This document shows positions 1 through 51,367 of a DNA stretch of 64,000 nucleotides, piece by piece. The translations under genes were made by a program, and so were the position numbers. The notes beneath the pieces were generated by a model. It worked only from the letters and a program-made list of their open reading frames with translations, did not search any database and was not told the DNA's origin. Numbering within the stretch: the first letter of the stretch is position 1; each line of letters opens with the position of its first letter. The DNA lies in NCBI GenBank assembly GCA_934086395.1, contig CAKOIE010000003.1, positions 1,163 to 65,162 of the forward strand, given 5' to 3'. The DNA is from an uncultured Bacilli bacterium (GTDB taxonomy: Bacteria; Bacillota_I; Bacilli_A; RF39; UBA660).

Positions 1-1592
1 TTACTACGAACATTTAAAACACTAAACTGGTCACCTGAGTAAGGAGACAATGTCCAATACCAATTTAATTTATGCAACCAATTATCTATTTTACATTTCA
101 CATTTGTATAATCAAATTGTTGACTTATAGAATTATACTCTATGCCAGCCCTTAAATTTTCTCTACATTCACTATTTGTTGAGGCATATCCATAATCACT
201 TACATAAATTAGTCCAACCTTACCAGTCCATTTAGTAGGGCGACTATTTTGATAGGTTATTGTTCCTCTTTCTTTACTATATTGATCAAGAAGAGGTAAT
301 CCATATGGTAGAGTATTTGGATTATTCCATGCATTTCCACCTATACTCCATACACTTTCACTTATCATATTTTGATAAGTGCCTTTTATAACTTTAGTAT
401 AATCAAATTCTCCTGTTTGGCGAAGTACTGGTTTATTAGCACTTGAATCATAATATGAATTATACCAATTTGTCTTGTTTGAAGTTAGGTTTGTATTTAA
501 ATAATCACCATTTAACTCTTTCATTAAATCAGCCTTTGTCCAATCATTAATTCCATAGTTATTATTTTTAGTAGCATCCCATGAATAATAACCTAGCTGT
601 TCGTCTCTTACTAATTTTAGTTTTTTGCTTGTTACTCCACTAGAATCTTTTATATTAAATACTCCAATTATTCTCCATGTTTCATTATTAAACTCAACAT
701 AATTTCTAGGTTCTGCTCCTGTATATCTTAAGTTTACATCACTTGTATTATCTATAAATAATCCATTTTCATTATTTATATCTTTTTGTTGCAAAGTTGT
801 TACATATTCTACAGCATTTACACCAGTACTTTCAAAATTTACTACTAACTTATTTGGCAATGACGAAATATTATCTACTGTATATGACCATTTTCCAGTT
901 GCATAATTGCAACTGAAACCTACTGTACTATCTTTTAACTCAGTATTATTTTTATAAGCAGTTGATATAGCACTGTAAAAACAAGTTGTAGGTAATTCTT
1001 TTACTTCTACTCCATCTACGTACGCTACTATATCTATATCTTTATTTAAATAATTAATATATTTTATCTGATTTGCTAGTTCTAAATCATTCCATATATA
1101 TCCTGCATTTAAATTAAGTTTTATATAATAATCATTATTACTTTTATTATTTGTTAAGATAGTTAATGACTTAGTTTTACTTGAATTTATAGTTCCACTT
1201 ACTTCACTAGATTCATATTCTTTAGATACACTTATATCACTTGGTATATTATTATTTGTTTCTGTACAATTTTGATTATTACATAATTCATAAGTAAATT
1301 CATACTTAACATCTATTTTATTTAAATTAGTTAATATTATATTAAATTGTTCAATCTTACCTGCTTGTAAATGTAATATTCTATCATTTGTTTCACCACT
1401 ATTTGTTGTTATATTAAATGATAAATCATTAACCTTTATATTAGCAATCTTTTTATTTTGACTACTTGTAAACATCGATAATGAATAACCTAAAGTAAAT
1501 ATAAATAATAGTATAATTCCCATTATAGTTAATATCTTTGCTTGTTTATCTTTTTTTATTAAATTAAAAAATTTGATAAGTTTAGTTTTCAT
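1..1592 (-). CDS. secreted surface protein, paralog of 30818..32542 (3' end outside the window)
   Basis: The minus-strand frame is open from the window edge to the ATG at 1590-1592. It is absent from the ORF track because there is no stop inside the window. Nt ~1080-1660 are almost identical to ~32030-32610, and the remainder aligns with divergence. The N-terminus is the same: TM plus ...LGYSLSMFTSS, a signal-like segment. Confidence 0.8.
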   Translation of the reverse strand, partial: MKTKLIKFFNLIKKDKQAKILTIMGIILLFIFTLGYSLSMFTSSQNKKIANIKVNDLSFNITTNSGETNDRILHLQAGKIEQFNIILTNLNKIDVKYEFTYELCNNQNCTETNNNIPSDISVSKEYESSEVSGTINSSKTKSLTILTNNKSNNDYYIKLNLNAGYIWNDLELANQIKYINYLNKDIDIVAYVDGVEVKELPTTCFYSAISTAYKNNTELKDSTVGFSCNYATGKWSYTVDNISSLPNKLVVNFESTGVNAVEYVTTLQQKDINNENGLFIDNTSDVNLRYTGAEPRNYVEFNNETWRIIGVFNIKDSSGVTSKKLKLVRDEQLGYYSWDATKNNNYGINDWTKADLMKELNGDYLNTNLTSNKTNWYNSYYDSSANKPVLRQTGEFDYTKVIKGTYQNMISESVWSIGGNAWNNPNTLPYGLPLLDQYSKERGTITYQNSRPTKWTGKVGLIYVSDYGYASTNSECRENLRAGIEYNSISQQFDYTNVKCKIDNWLHKLNWYWTLSPYSGDQFSVLNVRS

Positions 1593-24809: not shown

Positions 24810-25030
24810 ATACTATCAACTCCATTATAATTATAAACCATATATAAATTTAATGCAAAAAGAAACTGTAAAGTTACATTAATAATAGTTACTTAATTTA
24901 TATTAATATTTTCACTTGTTCGCTTGTTTATATATTAAACTAATTGTATAATACCAACTAAGGAACAATTAGTTGCTGGGTGTCTATCCTCACTTTTTTA
25001 TAATATCAAAAAGATGAGGAGGTGCTACAT

Positions 25031-25123
25031 ATGAGTAAAAGAAAATTTATTATTAAATTTCTAAGATACGTATGTTTCATTATTTTATGTATATCTGTTT
25101 TAGTATACATAGTAAAAAAATAG
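25031..25123 (+). CDS. putative type I toxin peptide (30 aa), copy 1
   Basis: SD GAGGAGG lies 8 nt upstream. The peptide is MSKRKFIIKFLRYVCFIILCISVLVYIVKK. See findings. Confidence 0.55.
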   Translation: MSKRKFIIKFLRYVCFIILCISVLVYIVKK

Positions 25124-25238
25124 ACACTTAATTACCAAGAAAGATAATTAAATGTCTTTACCAAATTAAATTTAGGATAGACATTCAGCATTGCAAAACT
25201 AAATGTTCCTTTTTTATTTTATGTAAGTCTTCCTTACA
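25114..25238 (-). ncRNA. putative antisense antitoxin RNA, copy 1 (approximate ends)
   Basis: Minus-strand promoter TTGATA(25267-25272)-17-TGcTATTAT(25244-25249). On the minus strand, hairpin 25122-25158 is followed by T7 (25114-25120). Confidence 0.45.
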
Positions 25239-25410
25239 CATTCATAATAGCATATTTTATTTTATTTATCAAATTAGTTTTTTATATATTTTCACTTGTT
25301 TGCTTGTTTATATATTAAACTAATTGTATAATACCAACTAAGGAACAATTAGTTGCTGGGTGTCTATCCTCACTTTTTTATAATATCAAAAAGATGAGGA
25401 GGTGCTACAT

Positions 25411-25503
25411 ATGAGTAAAAGAATATTTATTATTAAATTTCTAAGATACGTATGTTTCATTATTCTATGTATATCAATTTTGGTATACATGGTAAAAAAA
25501 TAG
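25411..25503 (+). CDS. putative type I toxin peptide (30 aa), copy 2
   Basis: Same layout 380 nt downstream. The peptide is MSKRIFIIKFLRYVCFIILCISILVYMVKK. Confidence 0.55.
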   Translation: MSKRIFIIKFLRYVCFIILCISILVYMVKK

Positions 25504-25615
25504 ACACTTAATTATCAAGAAAGATAATTAAATGTCGACACTTTATTTTAAAGGATAGACATTCAGCGTAGCAAACTAAATGTTCCTTTTTTATTTTATG
25601 TAAGTTTCCCTTACA
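25494..25615 (-). ncRNA. putative antisense antitoxin RNA, copy 2 (approximate ends)
   Basis: Promoter TTGATA(25644-25649)-17-TATTAT(25621-25626) on the minus strand, with a terminator hairpin plus T7 at 25494-25538. Confidence 0.45.
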
Positions 25616-25664
25616 TATTCATAATAGCATGTTTTATTTTATTTATCAAATTAATCAAAAATTT

Positions 25665-30817: not shown

Positions 30818-32542
30818 TTAAATAGATAATTTATAAGGATCAACTTTTTCACCATTTCCACTAGCTATCAAGATATCAGATTTCAAGAAAACGGCCGGCC
30901 AAACCGCGTAGGAATCATACGCGAAGCCGTAGTCGAAAGCACCGTCCCCAAGCACAACGAACACGCTATGCGAGTAACCAGAGTAAGGCGATAACGTCCA
31001 ATACCAAGAGTTTTTAAATAACCAGTTATCTGTCTTACATTTTCCGTTTGTGTAATCCCATTTATCACTTTCTTTATCATATGTTACACCTGCTCTTAGG
31101 TTTTCATGACATTCTGCAAGTGTTGATGCATATCCATAATCACTGGCATAAATTAGTCCAACCTTACCTGTCCACTCAGTAGGGCGATTATTTTGATATG
31201 TTATTGTTCCTCTTTCTTTATTATATTGATCTAATAGAGGCAATCCATATGGTGGAGTATTTGGATTATTCCAGGTATTTCCTCCTATGTTCCATACACT
31301 TTCACTTATCATATTTTGATAATTACTTTTTATAACTTTAGTATAATCAAATTCTCCAGTTTGGCGAAGTACTGGTTTCTTAGTTGTTGAATCATAATAT
31401 GAATTATACCAATTATTCTTGTTTGCTGTTAATGCTGTATTTAAATAATCACCATTTAATTCATTTTTTAAGTCTGCTTCTGTCCAATTATTAAATCCAT
31501 AATCATTATTTCCAGTTGCATCCCATGAATAATTACCTAATGATTCATTTCTAACTAATTTAATCTTTCTTTCAATTTTACCAATTGAATCTTTTACATT
31601 AAAAACTCCAACTATTCTCCATAATTCTCCTGTGTTTGCAAACTCAACATAATTTCTAGGCTCAGCACCTGTATATCTTACATTTTTATCTACGGTTGGA
31701 TCGATAAATAATCCATGTTTATTGTTACTATCTAGTTCTTGAACTTTACTTACATATTCTACTGCATTTATTCCTTTACTTTCAAAGTTTACTACTAACT
31801 TATTTGGTATATTATCTAAATTTGAAACATTAATATCCCATTTTCCGGTTGCATAATTACAGTTAAAACTTACTGGGCTATCTTTTAACTCAGTATTATT
31901 TTTATAAGCAGTTGATACGGCACTATAAAAACAAGTAGTAGGTAATTCTTTTACTTCTACTCCATCTACATACGCTACTATATCTATATCTTTATTAATA
32001 CCTTTAATATATTTTATCTGATTTGCTAGTTCTAAATCATTCCATATATATCCAGCATTTAAATTAAGTTTTATATAATAATCATTATTACTTTTATTAT
32101 TTGTTAAGATAGTTAATGACTTAGTTTTACTTGAATTTATAGTTCCACTTACTTCACTAGATTCATATTCTTTAGATACACTTATATCACTTGGTATATT
32201 ATTATTTGTTTCTGTACAATTTTGATTATTACATAATTCATAAGTAAATTCATACTTAACATCTATTTTATTTAAATTAGTTAATATTATATTAAATTGT
32301 TCAATCTTACCTGCTTGTAAATGTAATATTCTATCATTTGTTTCACCACTATTTGTTGTTATATTAAATGATAAATCATTAACCTTTATATTAGCAATCT
32401 TTTTATTTTGACTACTTGTAAACATCGATAATGAATAACCTAAAGTAAATATAAATAATAGTATAATTCCCATTATAGTTAATATCTTTGCTTGTTTATC
32501 TTTTTTTATTAAATTAAAAAATTTGATAAGTTTAGTTTTCAT
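30818..32542 (-). CDS. secreted surface protein with a DUF1566/DUF6273-like C-terminal module
   Basis: 574 aa with an N-terminal TM/signal segment. The C-terminus is ..NSWYWTLSPYSG....AVWPAVFLKS. It is a paralog of 1..1592 and of the split gene 34760..36063. Confidence 0.75.
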   Translation of the reverse strand: MKTKLIKFFNLIKKDKQAKILTIMGIILLFIFTLGYSLSMFTSSQNKKIANIKVNDLSFNITTNSGETNDRILHLQAGKIEQFNIILTNLNKIDVKYEFTYELCNNQNCTETNNNIPSDISVSKEYESSEVSGTINSSKTKSLTILTNNKSNNDYYIKLNLNAGYIWNDLELANQIKYIKGINKDIDIVAYVDGVEVKELPTTCFYSAVSTAYKNNTELKDSPVSFNCNYATGKWDINVSNLDNIPNKLVVNFESKGINAVEYVSKVQELDSNNKHGLFIDPTVDKNVRYTGAEPRNYVEFANTGELWRIVGVFNVKDSIGKIERKIKLVRNESLGNYSWDATGNNDYGFNNWTEADLKNELNGDYLNTALTANKNNWYNSYYDSTTKKPVLRQTGEFDYTKVIKSNYQNMISESVWNIGGNTWNNPNTPPYGLPLLDQYNKERGTITYQNNRPTEWTGKVGLIYASDYGYASTLAECHENLRAGVTYDKESDKWDYTNGKCKTDNWLFKNSWYWTLSPYSGYSHSVFVVLGDGAFDYGFAYDSYAVWPAVFLKSDILIASGNGEKVDPYKLSI

Positions 32543-41130: not shown

Positions 41131-41535
41131 TTATCTTATAGTTTTCATTTTTTTATCTTCTGCTGTAACTTTATCAACTACTATGTTAAATACTTCAGTT
41201 AAATTTAAAGCTTCACATATTTCTTTAGCATAAAATTTAGCTATTTCGGTAGATACACCTTTGTTTATTTCATAGTTACATAAATACTCTTCAATAACTT
41301 CTCTTTCTCTACCATTGATATAATTTTTTATTTTGCTTACAGGCCATTTTAAATTTTTTAATTGTTTTTCTACTTGTAATAAAATTATTATGTATAAATT
41401 GGAAAGTAATTCAAATAATTCTGTGTTATTTGAAAACTCTTCTACTTTATCAAGTGTAAAAAAACTTACAACAGTACGTACTTTAAGATAATTTTTTAAT
41501 TCTTCATAGGTTATAATTAAATTTTCTTTTTCCAT
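41131..41535 (-). CDS. hypothetical protein
   Basis: 134 aa. It has RBS GGGGG and the promoter-like sequence TGCTATAAT upstream. Confidence 0.45.
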   Translation of the reverse strand: MEKENLIITYEELKNYLKVRTVVSFFTLDKVEEFSNNTELFELLSNLYIIILLQVEKQLKNLKWPVSKIKNYINGREREVIEEYLCNYEINKGVSTEIAKFYAKEICEALNLTEVFNIVVDKVTAEDKKMKTIR

Positions 41536-41733
41536 TTTCTAATCCCCCTGATTGCCTGTATTATAGCATATTTTTAGAAATAATTGCAACTATTTGTTTA
41601 ATAATATATTTTTATGGAATTTCGGTTGTTTTACGTTGACTATATCATACTCTGTTTGTTATAGAATCACTTAGGAATATTTAATTAATAGGGTGATTGC
41701 CTTTTTCAAACTATTATGAAAGAATGTGATATT

Positions 41734-41811
41734 ATGAGCAAAAAAGATTATTTAATTTTTATCTTACTTATAATTATAATATTGTTAATTGTAGTTATTT
41801 TATCTAAATAG
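41734..41811 (+). CDS. putative type I toxin peptide (25 aa; 31 aa from the in-frame ATG at 41716), copy 3
   Basis: The peptide is MSKKDYLIFILLIIIILLIVVILSK. The SD is weak or absent, so this copy is possibly decaying. Confidence 0.4.
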   Translation: MSKKDYLIFILLIIIILLIVVILSK

Positions 41812-41814
41812 CTA

Positions 41815-41927
41815 TTAAAAACAAAAAATCACCTCAACAGGGAGTTTTGGTGATTTCTACCTATATAAGGTAATCATCTAACTATCCAAATAGATGTTCC
41901 TTTTATTTTATGTAAGTATTCCTTACA
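41815..41927 (-). ncRNA. putative antisense antitoxin RNA, copy 3 (approximate ends)
   Basis: Minus-strand promoter TTGAAT(41956-41961)-17-TGcTAATAT(41933-41938). Hairpin AAATCACC/GGTGATTT (41826-41856) is followed by a T-run on the minus strand. Confidence 0.4.
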
Positions 41928-42089
41928 TATTCATATTAGCAAATTTTCAAAATTTATTCAAGCACAGCAAATACGATTATTCGTAATTTTTTTATTGACT
42001 TTATTCTTACGAAACTATATATTTATTTATAGGAACAACTAATTAGTTGGGTGATCGCCTTGCTTCATAACGAAGGGAGGTAGATAATT

Positions 42090-42173
42090 ATGAACAAAAG
42101 AGATATATTAATTTTCTTTTTATTAATTTTTATCCTTCTTTTAATTATTCTATTATATATAGTATTAATATAA
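42090..42173 (+). CDS. putative type I toxin peptide (27 aa), copy 4
   Basis: SD GGGAGG lies 9 nt upstream. The peptide is MNKRDILIFFLLIFILLLIILLYIVLI. Confidence 0.5.
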   Translation: MNKRDILIFFLLIFILLLIILLYIVLI

Positions 42174-42281
42174 AGAAAATCACCTAACTCAGCAATGAAT
42201 TAGGTGAGAACAAAACATTGGTAATCACCCAACATGCGAAATTGGATGTTCCTTTTTTATTTTATGTAAGTATTCCTTACA
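42172..42281 (-). ncRNA. putative antisense antitoxin RNA, copy 4 (approximate ends)
   Basis: Minus-strand promoter TTGCAC(42310-42315)-17-TGaTAATAT(42287-42292). Hairpin TCACCTAA/TTAGGTGA (42180-42207) is followed by TTTTCTTT on the minus strand. Confidence 0.4.
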
Positions 42282-42359
42282 TATTCATATTATCAAATTT
42301 TATATGTTTGTGCAAGTATCTAATAACGACAATTCGTAATAAAAAATTTTAAAAAATAG

Positions 42360-42836
42360 TTAGGCAACACTAACTATTTTAATTTGATAACTTCCAGTAG
42401 GAGATGAAATTTCTACTGTATCTCCTTCACTTTTATTAATAATTGCTTTACCAATAGGTGATTCGTTAGAAATCTTATTTTCAAATGGATCTGCTTCCAT
42501 TCTTCCTACGATATGATAAACTTCTTCTTCGTCATCATCAACATATTTAATTGTAACTGTTGAACCAACATCAACTATATGAGAATTTTTCTTTTCAATA
42601 ATAGTTGCATTAGCAAGCATAAATTCAAGTTCTTTAATTCTTCCCTCAACTTCAGCTTGTTCATTTCTTGCAGCATCATAGTCGGCATTTTCAGATAAGT
42701 CCCCTTGGCTTCTAGCATCTTTAATTGCTTCGATAACCTTTGGTCTTCTCACATTTTTTAATTCATTTAATTCTTCTTCAAGTTCTAAAAAACCATCACT
42801 TGTTAATAATATATCTTTCTTTGACATTAATATCAA
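42360..42836 (-). CDS. greA: transcription elongation factor GreA
   Basis: The coiled-coil N-terminus contains DLSENADYDAAR. The C-terminus reads SPIGKAIINKSEGDTVEI. Confidence 0.92.
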   Translation of the reverse strand: MILMSKKDILLTSDGFLELEEELNELKNVRRPKVIEAIKDARSQGDLSENADYDAARNEQAEVEGRIKELEFMLANATIIEKKNSHIVDVGSTVTIKYVDDDEEEVYHIVGRMEADPFENKISNESPIGKAIINKSEGDTVEISSPTGSYQIKIVSVA

Positions 42837-44872: not shown

Positions 44873-45467
44873 TATTCTTTTTAAAGCTTACTGATAAGCC
44901 ATCTCCAATATCATAAAATTTAGTAACATAATCTTTATTATTATTTAAAAATTCAATATAATTTTCTATTTTAGTAACTATTCCTCTAACATTTTTACTT
45001 TTAATAGATGCCTTATCTTTAACTAAACCATGAAATTTTAAGTTATCTGTTATTATTACTCCACCTGGATTTAAATAATTACAAAATCTTTCAAAGTATT
45101 TAATATATCCACCTTTAGCAGCATCAATAAAGATTAAATCATATTTACGTCCTGTTAAACTTACTTCTAATGCATCATTATATACTATTTCAATTCTTTT
45201 ATCTAAACCACAAGCATTAACATTTTTAACTGCTTCACGATATCTTTTCTCGTCTTTTTCAATAGTTGTAATTTCAACTGTATCGGTTGCATTAGCCATA
45301 AGTATTGCTGAATAACCTATTGCGGTACCTATTTCTAAAACTGTTTTAACATTATTAAGTTTAATATATTTCATAATAAATTTAATAGAATCAAGTTCAA
45401 TAATAGGAATATTATTTGCTTCAGCATATCTTTCCATTTCTAATATTGTCTCTTTCACAGGGAACAC
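44862..45467 (-). CDS. SAM-dependent O-methyltransferase (YrrM/TrmR-like)
   Basis: VLEIGTAIGYSAILMA, IFIDAAKG and ITDN. Confidence 0.75.
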   Translation of the reverse strand: MFPVKETILEMERYAEANNIPIIELDSIKFIMKYIKLNNVKTVLEIGTAIGYSAILMANATDTVEITTIEKDEKRYREAVKNVNACGLDKRIEIVYNDALEVSLTGRKYDLIFIDAAKGGYIKYFERFCNYLNPGGVIITDNLKFHGLVKDKASIKSKNVRGIVTKIENYIEFLNNNKDYVTKFYDIGDGLSVSFKKNNEK

Positions 45468-45529
45468 TTCCTTACGAACTAGATTATATCATAGGTTATT
45501 TAAAAAATGCAAAAAAATAAGAAAAGGAA

Positions 45530-46165
45530 CTATTTTGTAGTTCCATCATGATCAAAAATTATTTTTTTAATTTTTGCTGGTAATTGAAAATTAGTACTCA
45601 ATATTTCTTCATTTGTTCTTTCAGGATAATTTACAACAGCAAGTTTTACCATTGCTTCATTTGTTAGTTCATCCTCATTATAGTTACTTTTTTCTTTTAA
45701 ATTCTTAAGTTCTTCTTCTAAACTTTTAATTTTATCCTCTGATTTTTCTATTCCTTTAGACAATTCTTTTATGTTAAATTTATTTTCTTTATATGTTCCT
45801 AATAGAGAATATGATACAAATTGAATAAAAATTGTAATAGCGGTAGCTGCAAATAATATTCCAAATAATGTTTTATAAAAACCAATCTCACTTAATAATA
45901 TATCTCGACCCATAAAAATAATTATAAAGATCCAAAATATGTTTAGGAAAAAAAATTTATTTTTCGTTTTAATATTATTTTTAGATTTTTTTAATTGTTC
46001 TTTTAACATACTTACATAATTATTTTCTCTCTCTATTTTATTTTGTAAAGATAAAATTTTAACTGTATCTTCATTTTCACTAGATTCTACTCTTTTTAAT
46101 TTATTTTCATCATCTTCTACTACCCCAACTTTAGCTGTTTCATTCAAATATAACTCTTTATTCAT
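45530..46165 (-). CDS. tandem-paralog membrane/coiled-coil protein 1
   Basis: 211 aa with a conserved N-terminus MNKELYLNET.., a variable double-TM core and a conserved C-terminus ..EEELKNLKEK.NYNEDELTNE...PAKIKKI.F.H.GTTK. Confidence 0.65.
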   Translation of the reverse strand: MNKELYLNETAKVGVVEDDENKLKRVESSENEDTVKILSLQNKIERENNYVSMLKEQLKKSKNNIKTKNKFFFLNIFWIFIIIFMGRDILLSEIGFYKTLFGILFAATAITIFIQFVSYSLLGTYKENKFNIKELSKGIEKSEDKIKSLEEELKNLKEKSNYNEDELTNEAMVKLAVVNYPERTNEEILSTNFQLPAKIKKIIFDHDGTTK

Positions 46166-46198
46166 ATTATTTTTTCCTCTTTCTTTAATTTAAATCGT

Positions 46199-46227
46199 AT
46201 TATAGCAAACATTTGTTACTTTGTCAA
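46199..46227 (-). promoter_or_regulatory. consensus promoter TTGACA-17-TGcTATAAT for 45530..46165
   Basis: The reverse complement reads gaTTGACAaagtaacaaatgtttgcTATAATacg. A sister copy at 46959-46987 has TACAAT. Confidence 0.65.
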
Positions 46228-46310
46228 TCGAAACATCTGATGTGTAAATTATCTATATTAAAATTAATGTTAATAAAACCTGTGCGATATTTAAAAAATA
46301 AGAAAAGGAA

Positions 46311-46925
46311 CTATTTTGTAGTTCCATTATGATTAAAAGTTATTTTTTTAATTTTTGCTGGTATTTGAATATCGCTAACTAATGTTTCATCGCTTGTTCT
46401 TTCAGGATAATTTACTGTTGCAAATTTTATCACTTCTTCATTTGTTAGTTCATCCTCATTATAATTACATTTTTCTTTTAAATTTTTAAGTTCTTCTTCT
46501 AAAACCTTAATTTTATCATCAGATTTTTCTATTTCATTAGGTAATTCTTTCATAATTAGTCTATTTTCCTTAAATGATCCAAAATATTTTTTGCCTAAAA
46601 TTTGAATTATAGACATCGTAACGCCAACCATTGTTGTTATAAGGAACTGAATAATATTAAAATCATTAAATAAATTAAATGCCAAAATAATTATAGGCTC
46701 CCAAAACATTAAGTTTATACATTTTAAAATTATACGAACTTTAGCGTCAGATAATACTTTTTGCATCCTTACTACACTTTTATTTTCTCTTTCTATTTCA
46801 TTTTGCAATTCTAAAATTTTAACTGTATCTTCATTTTCACTAGATTCTACTCTTTTTAATTTCTTTTCATCATCTACTACTAGTCCAACATTTGTTGTTT
46901 CATTTAAATATAACTCTTTATTCAT
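46311..46925 (-). CDS. tandem-paralog membrane/coiled-coil protein 2
   Basis: 204 aa, same family. A terminator hairpin GGAACTAcaaaaTAGTTCC spans its stop codon. Confidence 0.65.
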   Translation of the reverse strand: MNKELYLNETTNVGLVVDDEKKLKRVESSENEDTVKILELQNEIERENKSVVRMQKVLSDAKVRIILKCINLMFWEPIIILAFNLFNDFNIIQFLITTMVGVTMSIIQILGKKYFGSFKENRLIMKELPNEIEKSDDKIKVLEEELKNLKEKCNYNEDELTNEEVIKFATVNYPERTSDETLVSDIQIPAKIKKITFNHNGTTK

Positions 46926-47068
46926 ATTATTTTTTCCTCTTTCTTTAATTTAAATCGTATTGTAGCAAACATTTGTTACTTTGTCAATCGAAACATCTGA
47001 TGTAAATTATCTATATTAAAATTCATATTAATAAAACCTGTGTGATATTTAAAAAATAAGAAAAGGAA

Positions 47069-47695
47069 CTATTTTGTAGTTCCATTATGATTAAAAGTTA
47101 TTTTTTTAATTTTGGCTGGTATCTGAATATCGCTAACTAATGTTTCATCACTTGCTCTTTCAGGATAATTTACTGTTGCAAGTTTTATCACATCTTCATT
47201 TGTTAGTTCATCCTCATTATAGTTACTTTTTTCTTTTAAATTCTTAAGTTCTTCTTCTAAACTTTTAATTTTATCCTCTGATTTTTCTATTCCTTTAGGC
47301 AATTCTTTTATGTAAAATTTATTTTCTTTATATGTTCCAAATAAATATTTTAAATACATTTGTACAATTATACTAGTTCCACCAAATAAAATTAGAAAAC
47401 CGATTAGTTTAGCAATTGTACTGTTCATTACAATTAATACTGGAATAAAAAACGGAGCCGGTGCTAATAAACATATAAGTGAAAGTATATTTTTACATTT
47501 AATATTATCTTTGGATTGTTCTAATTGTTCTTTAAACATTGTTACATATTTGTTTTCTCTCTCTATTTCATTTTGTAATGACAAAATTTTAACTGTATCT
47601 TCATTTTCATTAGATTCTACTCTTTTTAATTTTTTTTCATAATCTACTACTAATCCAACATTTGTTGTTTCATTTAAATATAATTCTTTATTCAT
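47069..47695 (-). CDS. tandem-paralog membrane/coiled-coil protein 3
   Basis: 208 aa, a mosaic of paralogs 1 and 2. Confidence 0.65.
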   Translation of the reverse strand: MNKELYLNETTNVGLVVDYEKKLKRVESNENEDTVKILSLQNEIERENKYVTMFKEQLEQSKDNIKCKNILSLICLLAPAPFFIPVLIVMNSTIAKLIGFLILFGGTSIIVQMYLKYLFGTYKENKFYIKELPKGIEKSEDKIKSLEEELKNLKEKSNYNEDELTNEDVIKLATVNYPERASDETLVSDIQIPAKIKKITFNHNGTTK

Positions 47696-47714
47696 ATTCT
47701 TTTTTCCTCTTTCT

Positions 47715-48392
47715 TTAATTTATATTAAAATCATAATTTTTAATTTTAATGTTACTTAATTCCGAATCTCTATTTTTTTCTTTTAAGCTATTAGAATAAT
47801 TAATTCTTGATAAATCTATTTCATCAATATTTAAGTTATTAGTTTTACTAAACTTAGCTTGTTTTTTCATATCATCTAATTCTTTTTGCAAAAGACTTAT
47901 TTTATCTATATTATTTTTAATTAAATTTGGAAGCACTTCTTTTTTTAATCGATAATTTTCTTTAAATGATTTATTGATTAATTCAAATACTGTAGTAACT
48001 AATATATTTATAGAACTTAATATAATACCTACAATTGTAAGTGAAATAATATTATTGGGTGTAACTAATAAATTAATAACAAATAGCAAACAAAATTCAA
48101 AAACAACACTAATAATTATTCCATTATATTTATCTTTAATATTTTTTTCAATTAAATCTAATGTATCGATATTCTCACTTAAATTATGTTGTTCAATCTC
48201 CAAATTATTTTCTTTTATCATTATTTCATTTACTTCTTTAGGCATATTTTTAGAATCTACAATATAATTTTTTTCTTCTCCATCATATATAATTCCTATA
48301 CCAGTTGTTTCATTTAATAATGTTCCTTCATCCACTTGATAATCACTTCCGTTTGTATAGAATATATTATTAAAATATACTTTAAAAGTCAA
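47715..48392 (-). CDS. distant member of the same paralog family
   Basis: 225 aa with the same architecture (LNETTGIG.., double TM, SFKENY, coiled coil) but low identity. Confidence 0.55.
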   Translation of the reverse strand: MTFKVYFNNIFYTNGSDYQVDEGTLLNETTGIGIIYDGEEKNYIVDSKNMPKEVNEIMIKENNLEIEQHNLSENIDTLDLIEKNIKDKYNGIIISVVFEFCLLFVINLLVTPNNIISLTIVGIILSSINILVTTVFELINKSFKENYRLKKEVLPNLIKNNIDKISLLQKELDDMKKQAKFSKTNNLNIDEIDLSRINYSNSLKEKNRDSELSNIKIKNYDFNIN

Positions 48393-48410: not shown

Positions 48411-49559
48411 TTAACAATCTTTATAAATATCATAAAGATATTCTAAATCCATTTGTTGTAATACTTGTTTTAGATAGTCTTTATTTTTAGGGCTTCTTAA
48501 ATCAATATTACTTTGATAAACTTTGTTTTTCCAATAATTACTATTATCTTTATCTAAATATGTCTCTTTTAATAATTTTTCATTCAAATTTATATCATAA
48601 CCTATACCATGATTTTTAAAATCAGCATCATTATATCGTGATTCATTGTTATTTTTAATTAAATTGTTATTATATTCGATTTCCTTATAAACTTCGCCAC
48701 ATTGAAACATTATCTTGTTGGGGTCTATTCCTGAAATACTTTTACCATACATTATAGGATATTTAATATTTTTTGGAAGTTCATCATGACCAATAATTTG
48801 ATAATCACCATAATATATATTATTATCCATAATATGTTGTGATGGATATGTTGGTAATGTTTTAAGTTTATCTATAGAAACATTTTTATCTTCAGTTAAT
48901 ATATGAAATATTTCTATTATTAAAGGTCTTCCCATAAGTATATCCCAGTATTTAAAGCCTTTCTTAGTTCTTTTATATACATCCATTAATATTCTTCCAT
49001 AAGTATAACTATGTTTTCCAACCTTTACTCTAAAATAATCTCCCTCTTTATAGTTGATGTGGGTACGTTTTTCATTAATAAATAAATTTAATTCTTCTAA
49101 GTCATCAGTTGTTAAATCGTTAATATAGTTATTTAACCATTCATTTAACGAGTCTAAATCACTAATTTTCTCATCAAAATATTCTTTTAAGAATGTTTTT
49201 TGAGTTGTATAGTTTCCTATTATGTAATATCCTTCTTTTTCTTTTGATTTAGATATATAAAAGTAGGCCCCATAACCACTTAAATTCTCAATTACTGAAA
49301 AAGTTATTTTTTTAGGTTTACCTCTATTTGTTTTGTGAAGTATTATTTGGTGATTATTAGTTGTATCATAATCTACATCTTTCTCTTTTAAAGAAAAATA
49401 CTTATCAGTAACATATAAATTAATTATTTTAACTATTTTATCTTTATCAAAATAAACAAGTATTTTAACACAGCCATCCTCATATATTTCACATTTATAA
49501 TTATCTTTAAGTGGCTTTACACCTAAATATTTACGATATTTATTACTATATATTTCCAT
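48411..49559 (-). CDS. hypothetical protein
   Basis: 382 aa with no TM and no motif I can name. Confidence 0.5.
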   Translation of the reverse strand: MEIYSNKYRKYLGVKPLKDNYKCEIYEDGCVKILVYFDKDKIVKIINLYVTDKYFSLKEKDVDYDTTNNHQIILHKTNRGKPKKITFSVIENLSGYGAYFYISKSKEKEGYYIIGNYTTQKTFLKEYFDEKISDLDSLNEWLNNYINDLTTDDLEELNLFINEKRTHINYKEGDYFRVKVGKHSYTYGRILMDVYKRTKKGFKYWDILMGRPLIIEIFHILTEDKNVSIDKLKTLPTYPSQHIMDNNIYYGDYQIIGHDELPKNIKYPIMYGKSISGIDPNKIMFQCGEVYKEIEYNNNLIKNNNESRYNDADFKNHGIGYDINLNEKLLKETYLDKDNSNYWKNKVYQSNIDLRSPKNKDYLKQVLQQMDLEYLYDIYKDC

Positions 49560-49590: not shown

Positions 49591-49688
49591 TTCTTCTAAC
49601 ATTTTTTCTTTTATTTTATCAACATCGGTAAAGAATAAATTTGTTCATTGATTTTTCATAGCAAGTAATGAGTTAAAGTTATATGATA
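49591..49688 (-). pseudogene. 3' remnant of a ToxN/AbiQ-like toxin gene
   Basis: It aligns with 50686-50783 of the intact gene. The translation is NFNSLLAMKNQ*TNLFFTDVDKIKEKMLEE, against NFNSLLAMKRQGINLFFTDIDKIKEKMLNE in the intact copy. Confidence 0.75.
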
Positions 49689-49718
49689 TCTAGATCTTTG
49701 ATGAAGCTTTACATATTT

Positions 49719-49767
49719 TCGATTGGAATCATTTATAACCCGCACCATCCATAAGCGGCTAACATTT
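49719..49767 (-). ncRNA. single orphan copy of the type III antitoxin repeat, with its promoter at 49797-49824
   Basis: TGGAATCATTTATAACCCGCACCATCCATAAGCGGCTAACATTT is identical to the units at 51216-51259 and 51266-51309. The promoter is TTGATT-16-TATACT. Confidence 0.6.
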
Positions 49768-49846
49768 ACCTCAAGTACTATCTTAAGTACAAAGAAAGTA
49801 TACTATAATTTTAAAAAAAATCAAATAGTTCTAGTAACACTAACGA

Positions 49847-50647: not shown

Positions 50648-51142
50648 TTATTTATGTAATTTATCATTTTCTAACTCATTTAACATTTTTTCTTTTATTT
50701 TATCAATATCTGTAAAAAATAAATTTATTCCTTGCCTCTTCATAGCAAGTAATGAATTGAAGTTATATAATATTTCATTTTTAAGGTTATCTGCAACTCT
50801 AACTGGTGCACCATTTTCGGTATGAATATGATCAATATATTTTTCTAAAGTAGGAAATGCATTTTGAATTAATATAACAGATTTTTTATTAGCAATTTCA
50901 CTTATCATTATAGATTTACAACTACCATATTTTTTTATTTTCTTTTCAATAATTGGCTTATATTTGGATACGTTGCTACTTAAAGGTATAAACCATAAAA
51001 TATCTCCATCTTTAATAGTAAAATAGGTTGGTCTAGACTTCCCATTTTCATGATTAATCATCAATCCCTTGTCATTTTTTTTATCAAAAAAAGTATCTTT
51101 AATATGATAAATGTATCCAGTTTTAATTTCCAAAACAATCAC
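50648..51142 (-). CDS. type III toxin-antitoxin system toxin, ToxN/AbiQ/CptN-like endoribonuclease
   Basis: GKSRPTYFTIKDGDILWFIPLSSNVSKYK matches the family hallmark RP...(x)n..aPLSSpK. Size is ~160 aa, with tandem RNA repeats upstream. The start may be the TTG at 51131-51133, after AAGGGTGA. Confidence 0.7.
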   Translation of the reverse strand: MIVLEIKTGYIYHIKDTFFDKKNDKGLMINHENGKSRPTYFTIKDGDILWFIPLSSNVSKYKPIIEKKIKKYGSCKSIMISEIANKKSVILIQNAFPTLEKYIDHIHTENGAPVRVADNLKNEILYNFNSLLAMKRQGINLFFTDIDKIKEKMLNELENDKLHK

Positions 51143-51169
51143 CCTTTCAATGAGAATATATCATAAACC

Positions 51170-51198
51170 AAAATAAAACTCCATCATTATTGATGAAG
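51170..51198 (-). terminator. hairpin plus U-run between the antitoxin repeats and the toxin ORF
   Basis: The minus strand reads CTTCATCAataaTGATGGAG followed by TTTTATTTT. Confidence 0.6.
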
Positions 51199-51202
51199 CT
51201 TT

Positions 51203-51309
51203 ACACATTTTCGAGTGGAATCATTTATAACCCGCACCATCCATAAGCGGCTAACATTTCGCGATTGGAATCATTTATAACCCGCACCATCCATAAGCGG
51301 CTAACATTT
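51203..51309 (-). ncRNA. type III antitoxin RNA: 2.2 tandem 50-nt direct repeats
   Basis: The 44-nt cores at 51216-51259 and 51266-51309 are identical, with 6-nt linkers and a partial unit at 51203-51210. Confidence 0.7.
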
Positions 51310-51338
51310 ACCTCGAATACTATCTCAAGTACATAAAA

Positions 51339-51367
51339 AGTATACTATAATTTTAACGAAAAGTCAA
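51339..51367 (-). promoter_or_regulatory. promoter TTGACT-17-TATACT driving the repeats and toxin
   Basis: The reverse complement reads atTTGACTtttcgttaaaattatagTATACTttt. Confidence 0.6.

What the first reader, a model, noticed from the sequence alone, without database searches (positions are those of the whole stretch)
41630..42330. Second tandem pair of the same module, strongly diverged in sequence but with preserved architecture
Copies 3 and 4 lie between a hypothetical gene and greA. Copy 3 has promoter TTGACT 41636-41641 and ORF 41734-41811. Copy 4 has promoter TTGACT-17-TATATT 41995-42023 and ORF 42090-42173. Their peptides (MSKKDYLIFILLIIIILLIVVILSK; MNKRDILIFFLLIFILLLIILLYIVLI) and leaders differ from copies 1 and 2, yet each keeps these features:
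- An AGGAA(C/T)A...TTA(A/G)TT...GGGTGAT 5' box.
- A 3' complement. For example, GTTGGGTGAT 42046-42055 pairs with ATCACCCAAC 42224-42233. Copy 3 pairs GGTGATTGCCTT with AAGGTAATCATC, needing only G-U wobbles.
- A post-stop hairpin that doubles as a minus-strand terminator.
- The near-invariant block ATGTTCCTTTT..ATTTTATGTAAGTATTCCTTACATATTCATATTA, which carries the antisense promoter and 5' hairpin (TGTAAG/CTTACA).

Pairing is retained despite sequence change, which argues for a functional RNA structure rather than a chance repeat. Copy 3 has lost a recognisable SD.
Basis: partly seen in the sequence, partly recalled or inferred. Interest (0 to 1): 0.7.

Follow-up and report, generated by a model that had tools for sequence, protein, structure and literature searches.

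The report
Tandem type I toxin-antitoxin-like modules

Summary
Window 41630-42330 holds two tandem modules, and 24900-25660 holds two more. Each has these parts:
- a plus-strand promoter;
- a 5' box (AGGAAYA...GGGTG);
- a hairpin that sequesters the SD;
- a 25-30-aa hydrophobic ORF;
- a post-stop hairpin that is a minus-strand terminator;
- a 3' box complementary to the 5' box;
- a conserved block with a minus-strand extended -10 promoter and a 5' hairpin.

A genome scan found more than 100 further copies in about 7 uncultured gut Bacilli MAG species, at least 6-18 per genome. In 88 distinct copies the 5'-3' helix pairs in 97.4% of cells, against 30-50% when slid. It shows compensatory changes and has 168 G:U against 10 A:C, so it forms in the plus-strand RNA.

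The ORF is intact in 86 of 88 copies and varies mostly at codon position 3. A stem in the antisense RNA also covaries, with minus-strand wobbles.

The architecture matches the experimentally probed bsrG/SR4 system. There is no sequence match to any Rfam, Pfam or NCBIfam family, and the peptides are essentially absent from protein databases.

Verdict: a new, unannotated type I toxin-antitoxin family of a known architectural kind. Transcription and toxicity are untested.

The parts
41636..41665 (+). Copy 3 toxin promoter: TTGACT, 18-nt spacer, TGtTATAGA. The -10 ends 7 nt before the AGGAATA box.
   Evidence: Read from the sequence. Across copies the best promoter match ends 7-10 nt before the 5' box in most cases. 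Promoter-like matches are common in DNA this AT-rich (shuffles), so this is weak evidence on its own.
41673..41704 (+). Copy 3 5' box: the 5' strand of long-range helices P1-P3 (AGGAATATTTAATTAATAGGGTGATTGCCTT).
   Evidence: MFE folds; alignment covariation.
41701..41726 (+). Copy 3 hairpin that sequesters the degenerate SD (UUUUUC / GAAAGA). The SD is mutated relative to orthologues: GAAGGCGA has become GAATGTGA.
41734..41811 (+). Copy 3 ORF, MSKKDYLIFILLIIIILLIVVILSK (25 aa).
   Evidence: The start codon aligns with the start in 86 of 88 copies. Codon-position variability is 27/16/55 for positions 1/2/3.
41825..41857 (.). Copy 3 post-stop hairpin. On the minus strand it is followed by a U run (to about 41816) and so acts as the terminator of the antisense RNA.
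   Evidence: -12.3 kcal/mol, tail TTGTTTTTA.
41867..41901 (+). Copy 3 3' box: the 3' strand of P3-P1 (AAGGTAATCATC...ATAGATGTTCCT).
41816..41928 (-). Copy 3 predicted antisense (antitoxin) RNA, about 113 nt: 5' hairpin AUGUAAGgaauaCUUACAU, an A-rich linker, an internal stem, then the terminator.
   Evidence: Fold z = -3.75; promoter geometry; stem covariation. The ends are inferred, not mapped.
41933..41961 (-). Copy 3 antisense promoter: TTGAAT (41961-41956), 17-nt spacer, TGcTAATAT (-10 at 41938-41933).
   Evidence: Read from the sequence. Family consensus is TTGaaa-17-TGnTAtTAT at a fixed 5 nt from the hairpin.
41995..42023 (+). Copy 4 toxin promoter: TTGACT, 17-nt spacer, TATATT.
   Evidence: 10 of 12 matches.
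42031..42062 (+). Copy 4 5' box (AGGAACAACTAATTAGTTGGGTGATCGCCTTG).
42057..42082 (+). Copy 4 SD-sequestering hairpin (GCCUUGCUUC / GAAGGGAGGU).
42090..42173 (+). Copy 4 ORF, MNKRDILIFFLLIFILLLIILLYIVLI (27 aa).
42180..42207 (.). Copy 4 post-stop hairpin, which is the minus-strand terminator (12 bp, tail TTTTCTTTAT).
42220..42253 (+). Copy 4 3' box (GGTAATCACCCAAC...AATTGGATGTTCCT).
42171..42282 (-). Copy 4 predicted antisense (antitoxin) RNA, about 112 nt.
   Evidence: Fold z = -4.98. The ends are inferred.
42287..42315 (-). Copy 4 antisense promoter: TTGCAC (42315-42310), 17-nt spacer, TGaTAATAT (-10 at 42292-42287).
   Evidence: Read from the sequence; family consensus.
24900..25660 (+). Copies 1 and 2 of the same module, 97% identical to each other, encoding MSKRKFIIKFLRYVCFIILCISVLVYIVKK and MSKRIFIIKFLRYVCFIILCISILVYMVKK.

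Best explanation
Each module is a chromosomal type I toxin-antitoxin-like locus with the bsrG/SR4 architecture.

The plus strand gives an mRNA of about 230-260 nt. This mRNA starts within 0-3 nt of the AGGAAYA box. Its first 33 nt or so pair with a box in the 3' UTR to form a long closing helix (P1-P3). On top of that helix sit a hairpin that buries the SD, the ORF for a 25-31-aa peptide, and a post-stop hairpin. The peptide has a basic N-terminus followed by one hydrophobic helix.

The minus strand carries a well-conserved extended -10 promoter that gives an sRNA of about 110-125 nt. This sRNA has a 5' hairpin, an A-rich linker, an internal stem and a terminator. It is fully complementary to the post-stop hairpin and to the 3' half of the closing helix.

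Inferred mechanism:
1. The free toxin mRNA is stable but poorly translated, because its ends are paired and its SD and AUG are buried.
2. The antisense RNA pairs with the 3' UTR and displaces the 5' end.
3. The resulting duplex of about 110 bp is a substrate for RNase III, so the mRNA is degraded and peptide synthesis is prevented.
4. If translated, the peptide inserts into the membrane and is harmful.

What is shown in silico: the anatomy, the conservation, the strand-specific covariation and the coding constraint. What is inferred by analogy with bsrG/SR4: transcription, RNA decay and toxicity.
For: Anatomy:
- All four window copies have the full set of parts.
- There are 116 distinct copies in related strains and MAGs.

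5'-3' helix:
- It is the only RNAalifold consensus over 88 copies.
- 97.4% of cells pair, against 30-50% when slid.
- 112 double-change cells, against 26.5 in shuffles (0 of 500 reach that).
- 9 pairs carry compensatory changes, across 44 inner-helix haplotypes.
- G:U 168 against A:C 10 points to plus-strand RNA.

ORF:
- It is intact in 86 of 88 copies, with an ATG or GTG start at one aligned position.
- Variable columns by codon position are 27, 16 and 55.

Antisense RNA:
- Promoter TTGaaa-17-TGnTAtTAT lies at a fixed distance from the hairpin.
- A minus-strand hairpin plus U run directly follows the stop codon in 67 of 88 copies at -6 kcal/mol or better.
- The internal stem covaries: 53 double-change cells against 16.3 (0 of 500), with UG 20 against CA 2.

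Folding:
- z-scores are -5.9 and -7.0 for the mRNAs and -3.8 to -7.6 for the antisense RNAs.
- SD and AUG are predicted to be paired: unpaired probability 0.17 and 0.04.
- The 5' end opens from 0.22 to 0.56 unpaired when the 3' UTR is blocked.

Precedent: probed bsrG mRNA has 5' nt 1-35 paired with 3' nt 232-262, the SD in a short helix on top, and SR4 complementary to SL3, to the 3' half of P1 and to the terminator. SR4 binding frees nt 1-33 and RNase III cleaves (PMC3834814; PMC6562991).

Multicopy and tandem arrangement is typical of type I systems.
Against: - There are no transcript data, so both promoters, both RNA ends and the toxin mRNA terminator are predictions. The hairpin after P1 is AT-rich and lacks an adjacent U run.
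- Toxicity is untested.
- No known toxin or antitoxin family matches.
- The outer 7 pairs of the helix and the antisense 5' hairpin were fixed by the search pattern and by my choice of 5' box. They say nothing about conservation in the 88-copy set.
- Compensatory changes trace to a limited number of subfamily-level events. The shuffle control ignores relatedness.
- Blocking the 3' UTR hardly changes predicted SD accessibility (0.17 to 0.13), so a translational effect like that of SR4 is not supported in general.
- Some copies are decaying: ATA start codons, an SD deletion, and the mutated SD of window copy 3.
Confidence: 0.75

Rival explanations
1. The module is a gene for a small membrane peptide that is not a toxin, for example a regulatory or accessory small protein. 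Its expression is tuned by a cis-antisense RNA and by mRNA structure.
For: Everything shown in silico fits equally well: coding constraint, the antisense gene and the structured mRNA. No homology to any proven toxin was found.
Against: Several features are hallmarks of type I toxins rather than of housekeeping small proteins (PMC8594479; PMC6562991):
- very high paralogue number, at least 6-18 per genome;
- tandem arrays;
- strain-to-strain copy-number change at one locus;
- frequent decay of individual copies;
- heavy multi-layer repression, with SD and AUG buried plus a dedicated antisense RNA.
Confidence: 0.15
2. There is only a cis-acting mRNA structure. The 5'-3' helix and the downstream hairpins stabilise or terminate the small-ORF mRNA. 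The minus-strand 'promoter' and 'terminator' are incidental, so there is no functional antisense RNA.
For: Promoter-like hexamers are no commoner than chance in DNA this AT-rich. No expression data exist.
Against: - The minus-strand -35, TG and -10 elements are among the best-conserved positions of the module and sit at a fixed distance from the hairpin.
- The post-stop hairpin carries its U run on the minus strand only.
- The internal stem covaries with U:G wobbles that pair only in the minus-strand RNA: 20 against 2.
Confidence: 0.06
3. The module is a non-autonomous mobile repeat of the MITE type. Its terminal inverted repeats would be the 5' and 3' boxes, and the ORF and promoters would be fortuitous.
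For: Inverted repeats of about 33 nt flank a core of about 190 bp. There are many dispersed and tandem copies per genome.
Against: - Mismatches in the repeats are overwhelmingly G:T rather than A:C (168 against 10). That is expected for RNA pairing on one strand and not for DNA-level symmetry.
- The ORF is kept in frame and evolves like coding sequence.
- The promoters lie outside the repeats and are conserved.
- There are no matches on plasmids, phages or viral contigs.
- Target-site duplications were not looked for.
Confidence: 0.03

Closest known systems
bsrG/SR4 of Bacillus subtilis prophage SPbeta, and the structurally similar bsrE/SR5
   Same: - Convergent toxin mRNA and antisense RNA overlap at their 3' ends by about 100-140 nt.
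- The toxin mRNA is closed by a long helix between its first 35 nt or so and a 3' UTR segment.
- The SD sits in a short helix on top of that closing helix.
- The antitoxin is complementary to the post-stop stem-loop and to the 3' half of the closing helix, so binding must free the 5' end.
- The toxin is a small single-helix hydrophobic peptide (PMC3834814; PMC6562991).
   Different: - No sequence similarity is detectable: nothing in Rfam, Pfam or NCBIfam.
- The peptides are shorter (25-31 aa).
- The loci are in core chromosomal intergenic regions, not in prophages.
- There are 6-18 or more copies per genome in tandem arrays.
- The antisense RNA starts at or inside the hairpin after P1, so a separate toxin terminator is not evident.
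- The predicted SD helix does not lengthen in general when the antisense RNA binds.
txpA/RatA and yonT/SR6 (B. subtilis)
   Same: [quoted passage not shown] The toxins are hydrophobic and shorter than 60 aa (PMC6562991).
   Different: In those families the antisense RNA overlaps the ORF (PMC8594479). Here it ends at the stop codon or a few nt past it. There is no sequence similarity.
hok/Sok (plasmid R1) and aapA1/IsoA1 (Helicobacter pylori)
   Same: A 5'-3' long-distance interaction locks the full-length toxin mRNA in a poorly translated, stable form (my own knowledge; PMC6733600 and PMC9841398 listed).
   Different: In those systems the antisense RNA binds the 5' region or translation-initiation region, and activation needs 3' trimming that removes the 3' partner. 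Here the antisense RNA targets the 3' partner itself. The hosts are Gram-negative and there is no homology.
fst/RNAII (par of pAD1, Enterococcus)
   Same: Gram-positive, convergent transcripts that share a terminator region, and a small hydrophobic toxin.
   Different: RNAII pairs with the 5' end of fst mRNA through direct repeats (PMC3834814 introduction; PMC8594479). Here the antisense RNA has the same sense as the 5' box, as shown by nhmmer minus-strand hits of model positions 2-36, so it cannot pair with it. There is no Fst_toxin Pfam match.

Membership tests
Type I toxin-antitoxin system (generic) | Small ORF (under 60 aa), usually hydrophobic with a single transmembrane helix | tested here: met
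   25-31-aa peptides with a basic N-terminus and a hydrophobic core. The ORF is intact in 86 of 88 copies and shows coding-type variability.
Type I toxin-antitoxin system (generic) | A separate antisense RNA gene whose product base-pairs with the toxin mRNA | tested here: met
   In silico only. There is a conserved minus-strand extended -10 promoter, a 5' hairpin and a terminator. A stem covaries with minus-strand wobbles. Complementarity follows from the overlap.
Type I toxin-antitoxin system (generic) | The peptide is toxic when expressed, and the RNA prevents its synthesis | not testable with these tools
   Needs expression experiments.
Type I toxin-antitoxin system (generic) | Both RNAs are actually transcribed | not testable with these tools
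   No transcriptome resource was available.
BsrG/SR4 (TxpA/BsrG-type) family | Sequence homology of the toxin peptide or the RNAs to family members | tested here: not met
   No Rfam match, even at E up to 10. No Pfam or NCBIfam match at E up to 10. I did not compare directly with the bsrG or SR4 sequences.
BsrG/SR4 (TxpA/BsrG-type) family | 3'-end overlap of about 100-140 nt, and a closing helix between the 5' 35 nt or so and the 3' UTR whose 3' half is the antitoxin target | tested here: met
   The predicted overlap is about 105-125 nt. The closing helix has 24 pairs with covariation. Compared with PMC3834814.
BsrG/SR4 (TxpA/BsrG-type) family | Antitoxin binding lengthens the helix that sequesters the SD | tested here: inconclusive
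   The predicted SD unpaired probability changes from 0.17 to 0.13. The helix lengthens by about 2 bp in one class only. This is thermodynamic prediction, not probing.
Fst/RNAII | Fst-type toxin (Pfam Fst_toxin), and an antitoxin that pairs with the mRNA 5' end through direct repeats | tested here: not met
   No Pfam match. The antisense RNA carries the same sequence as the 5' box, not its complement.
hok/Sok-type | The antisense RNA targets the 5' leader or translation-initiation region, and there is a Hok/Gef peptide | tested here: not met
   The antisense gene lies wholly 3' of the ORF. No Pfam match. Only the 5'-3' fold-back principle is shared.
MITE-like repeat | Terminal inverted repeats conserved at the DNA level, non-coding, with target-site duplications | tested here: not met
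   G:T 168 against A:C 10 in the repeats. The ORF is under coding constraint. Target-site duplications were not examined.

The most novel reading that the evidence does not exclude
Across peptide classes that have otherwise diverged to about 20-50% identity, the 3' end of every toxin mRNA and the first 36 nt or so of every antisense RNA share one nearly invariant block. That block comprises UGUUCCU, a U-rich linker and the AUGUAAG...CUUACAU hairpin. With 6-18 or more paralogues per small genome, any antitoxin could then engage any toxin mRNA. The family would behave as one cross-regulated network, or depend on one shared factor that recognises the SD-like AGGAACA box. This would contrast with the insulated cognate pairs described for other multicopy type I families.
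Probability: 0.2. Interest if true: 0.55.

Novelty: new member of a known kind. Interest (0 to 1): 0.4.

Why it matters
[quoted passage not shown] They have been reported from only a few phyla (PMC12390103). Here is a complete family rich in paralogues, carried by a common but uncultured gut Bacilli lineage with 24.6% G+C. It is invisible in protein and RNA family databases: there is one mis-called ORF among 1.84 billion representatives and no exact match among 15 billion proteins.

The more than 100 natural variants amount to a ready-made mutational series for the bsrG/SR4-type fold-back architecture. They also show that this architecture exists well outside Bacillus prophages. The family could be added to T1TAdb or Rfam and used to annotate these MAGs.

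Tried and rejected
- Rfam at gathering thresholds over the whole window, and at E up to 10 over the locus: only a tRNA elsewhere and chance-level hits.
- Pfam and NCBIfam on the five peptide variants at E up to 10: nothing relevant.
- Exact-sequence look-up of 10 peptide variants: none is in the collection.
- Profile search of 1.84 billion representatives: one hit, which is an over-extended ORF call of the same module.
- Viral contigs, plasmids and phages: no match.
- Search for extra antisense-to-mRNA complementarity outside the overlap, as in fst or sprA1. The first RNAduplex script timed out. The second gave z-scores from -0.07 to -4.05 with implausibly loop-rich duplexes, so it was inconclusive and was dropped.
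- Test of a translational switch like that of SR4: predicted SD accessibility barely changes when the 3' UTR is blocked, so I do not claim it.
- The metagenome scan was not used. A pattern loose enough to reach new lineages would have been swamped by chance hits and by the same abundant species.

Full report
**What is there**

The region 41630-42330 lies between a 134-aa hypothetical gene (41131-41535, minus) and greA (42360-42836, minus). It holds two head-to-tail modules of about 355 bp.
- TTGACT at 41636-41641, followed by an 18-nt spacer and TGtTATAGA.
- ORF 41734-41811.
- TTGACT-17-TATATT at 41995-42023.
- ORF 42090-42173.
- GTTGGGTGAT 42046-42055 is the exact complement of ATCACCCAAC 42224-42233.
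- GGTGATTGCCTT and AAGGTAATCATC form 12 pairs with two G-U.

The 30-mer TATGTAAGTATTCCTTACATATTCATATTA is identical in both copies. It recurs with 3 mismatches at 25220 and 25597, with none expected by chance. Copies 1 and 2 lie there, between ftsK and a metallophosphoesterase gene. An HMM built from the family finds exactly these four copies in the window.

**Anatomy**

All four copies align part by part, although the leader, ORF and 3' UTR are strongly diverged. The parts, in order, are:
- a plus-strand promoter;
- the AGGAAYA...GGGTG 5' box, which starts 7-10 nt after the -10;
- a hairpin that buries the SD;
- a 25-30-aa ORF;
- a hairpin right after the stop codon, with its U run on the minus strand;
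- a 3' box complementary to the 5' box;
- the conserved block.

On the minus strand the block reads TTGnnn-17-TGnTAwTAT, followed 5 nt later by the hairpin AUGUAAG-loop-CUUACAU. That is an extended -10 promoter whose transcript would begin with a stabilising 5' hairpin and end about 110 nt later at the post-stop terminator.

Unconstrained MFE folds of all four plus-strand RNAs close with the 5'-3' helix. For copies 3 and 4, z = -5.85 and -6.98. The four predicted antisense RNAs fold into three stem-loops, with z from -3.75 to -7.56.

**Relatives**

The window comes from an uncultured human-gut bacterium with 24.6% G+C. Its Der protein is present in 317 blocks of the assembly collection, including Hadza samples.

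At the same greA-der locus, ten other strains carry one or two copies, and a third sequence variant appears. The locus is therefore dynamic.

A scan of one genome per species, using TGTTCCT-N(4-14)-ATGTAAG-N5-CTTACAT, returned 74 loci. Almost all come from seven MAG species labelled uncultured Bacilli, Tenericutes or Bacillales.

Together these give 116 distinct copies. Each of the seven genomes has at least 6-18 near-full-length copies, which is a lower bound. Half of the copies sit in tandem arrays. In 54 of 64 cases the toxin strand converges on the downstream gene. There are no matches on viral contigs, phages or plasmids.

**The 5'-3' helix**

Eighty-eight distinct candidate mRNAs were aligned (A2). 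RNAalifold keeps one consensus feature, the 24-pair closing helix, and 9 of its pairs show compensatory changes.

Counts on that structure:
- 97.4% of cells pair, against 30-50% when the 3' partner is slid by 1-3 columns.
- There are 112 double-change cells, against 26.5 +/- 5.8 in shuffles (0 of 500 reach that).
- The covariation score is 0.249, against 0.160.

Caveats:
- The outer seven pairs (AGGAACA/TGTTCCT) were fixed by the search pattern and by my choice of 5' box, so they carry no information.
- The signal comes from the 17 inner pairs, which occur as 44 haplotypes.
- The changes trace back to a limited number of subfamily-level events.
- The shuffle control ignores relatedness. The slid control does not.

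Non-Watson-Crick cells are 168 G:U against 10 A:C. The helix is therefore maintained in the plus-strand RNA. It is not maintained as a DNA-level inverted repeat or in the antisense RNA.

**The ORF**

At one aligned position, 86 of 88 copies have ATG (61) or GTG (25) followed by an open frame of 23-44 codons. Two copies have ATA. At least seven peptide classes exist. All have M-(S/N/R/K)-K-(K/R) followed by about 20 hydrophobic residues, often with a basic end.

Within classes, variable columns fall 27, 16 and 55 at codon positions 1, 2 and 3, which is the signature of translated sequence.

Window copy 3 has two substitutions in its SD (GAAGGCGA to GAATGTGA) relative to orthologues.

**The antisense RNA**

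- The minus-strand -35, TG and -10 positions are among the most conserved of the module, at a fixed distance from the hairpin.
- A minus-strand hairpin plus U run begins within a few nt of the stop codon in 67 of 88 copies at -6 kcal/mol or better. Its sequence differs between classes.
- In 65 aligned antisense candidates (A4), an internal stem (CAYYU/ARRUG) covaries. It has 53 double-change cells against 16.3 +/- 7.7 (0 of 500 shuffles reach that) and pairs in 99.7% of cells, against 19-51% when slid. It has 20 U:G against 2 C:A, so the wobbles pair only in the minus-strand transcript.

Both strands therefore carry their own strand-specific RNA-structure signal.

**Mechanism**

In predicted ensembles the SD and AUG are largely paired, with mean unpaired probability 0.17 and 0.04. 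This holds whether or not the 3' UTR is blocked. Blocking the 3' UTR does free the 5' end (0.22 to 0.56) and the 5' box (0.09 to 0.35).

The most likely working model:
1. The mRNA is stable and poorly translated, with both ends locked together.
2. The antisense RNA invades the 3' half of the lock, probably starting from complementary loops.
3. This exposes the 5' end and creates a duplex of about 110 bp for RNase III.

These steps are inferred by analogy. The toxin mRNA 3' end is not clear. The AT-rich hairpin after P1 has no adjacent U run, and the U run directly after P1 would need the long-range helix itself to act as the terminator stem.

**Comparison with known systems**

The architecture is that of B. 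subtilis bsrG/SR4 as determined by structure probing (PMC3834814; PMC6562991):
- 5' nt 1-35 pair with 3' nt 232-262 in helix P1.
- The SD lies in a short helix of SL1 on top of P1.
- SR4 is complementary to SL3, to the 3' half of P1 and to the terminator.
- On SR4 binding, nt 1-33 become single-stranded and RNase III cleaves.

It also fits the general Gram-positive layout, in which the antisense RNA lies on the 3' side (PMC8594479). It shares the fold-back principle with hok and aapA1 but not their antisense position. It differs from fst/RNAII because the antisense RNA mimics the 5' box rather than complementing it.

There is no sequence membership in any described family. The peptides are absent from a 15-billion-protein collection. 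One over-extended ORF call is the only hit among 1.84 billion representatives.

**Verdict**

This is a new, unannotated family of a known kind: a type I toxin-antitoxin with bsrG/SR4-like architecture, amplified in an uncultured gut Bacilli lineage. Expression and toxicity remain to be shown.

Noticed in passing
window 50648-51362 (minus strand): A 164-aa ORF (50648-51142) matches the CptN type III toxin (PDB 4RMO_A, E = 1.9e-17) but has no Pfam or PADLOC hit. Directly upstream of it lies a 50-nt tandem repeat of 2.1 copies at 94% identity (51205-51309; repeat family 51190-51362). This is a candidate CptI-like antitoxin RNA, so the locus is a likely type III cptIN system.
   Followed up: partly
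window 49592-49820: A deleted remnant of the same cptIN-like locus. An 87% copy of the toxin 3' end (49592-49689) sits next to one repeat unit (49698-49820), 1.1-1.5 kb from the intact locus (D9, D11, D12).
   Followed up: no
window 48411-49559 (minus strand): A 382-aa protein with an Imm26 immunity-protein domain (E = 4e-20) lies next to the cptIN-like locus. This suggests a small defence or conflict island.
   Followed up: no
window 45462-47773: Three tandem units of about 760-780 bp at 76-93% identity (D1, D2, D10, D16). They appear to correspond to the variable set of 186-210-aa hypothetical genes seen between the O-methyltransferase gene and yceG in other strains, and their number differs between strains.
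   Followed up: no
window 16-1279 and 30960-32229: A duplicated segment of about 1.3 kb, 31 kb apart, at 77-100% identity in pieces (D3, D4, D7, D13).
   Followed up: no
L001-L010, region between greA and der: The greA-der intergenic region is a strain-variable hot spot. It holds one or two modules, a 129-137-aa hypothetical gene that is present or absent, and in some strains inserted genes of 360-370 aa.
   Followed up: partly
64 module copies in L011-L084 and the window: There is an orientation bias. In 54 of 64 modules the gene downstream of the toxin lies on the opposite strand, and in 43 of 64 both neighbours do. The antisense RNA therefore runs with the local direction of transcription and could also receive read-through, for example from greA at 42360.
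   Followed up: partly
L013:5486-5727, L059:6078-6319, L053:4994-5199, L025:3070-3307, window 41719-41731: Individual copies are decaying. Two have ATA in place of the start codon, one has lost the whole SD hairpin, one has lost its stop codon (giving 44 aa), and window copy 3 has a mutated SD.
   Followed up: partly
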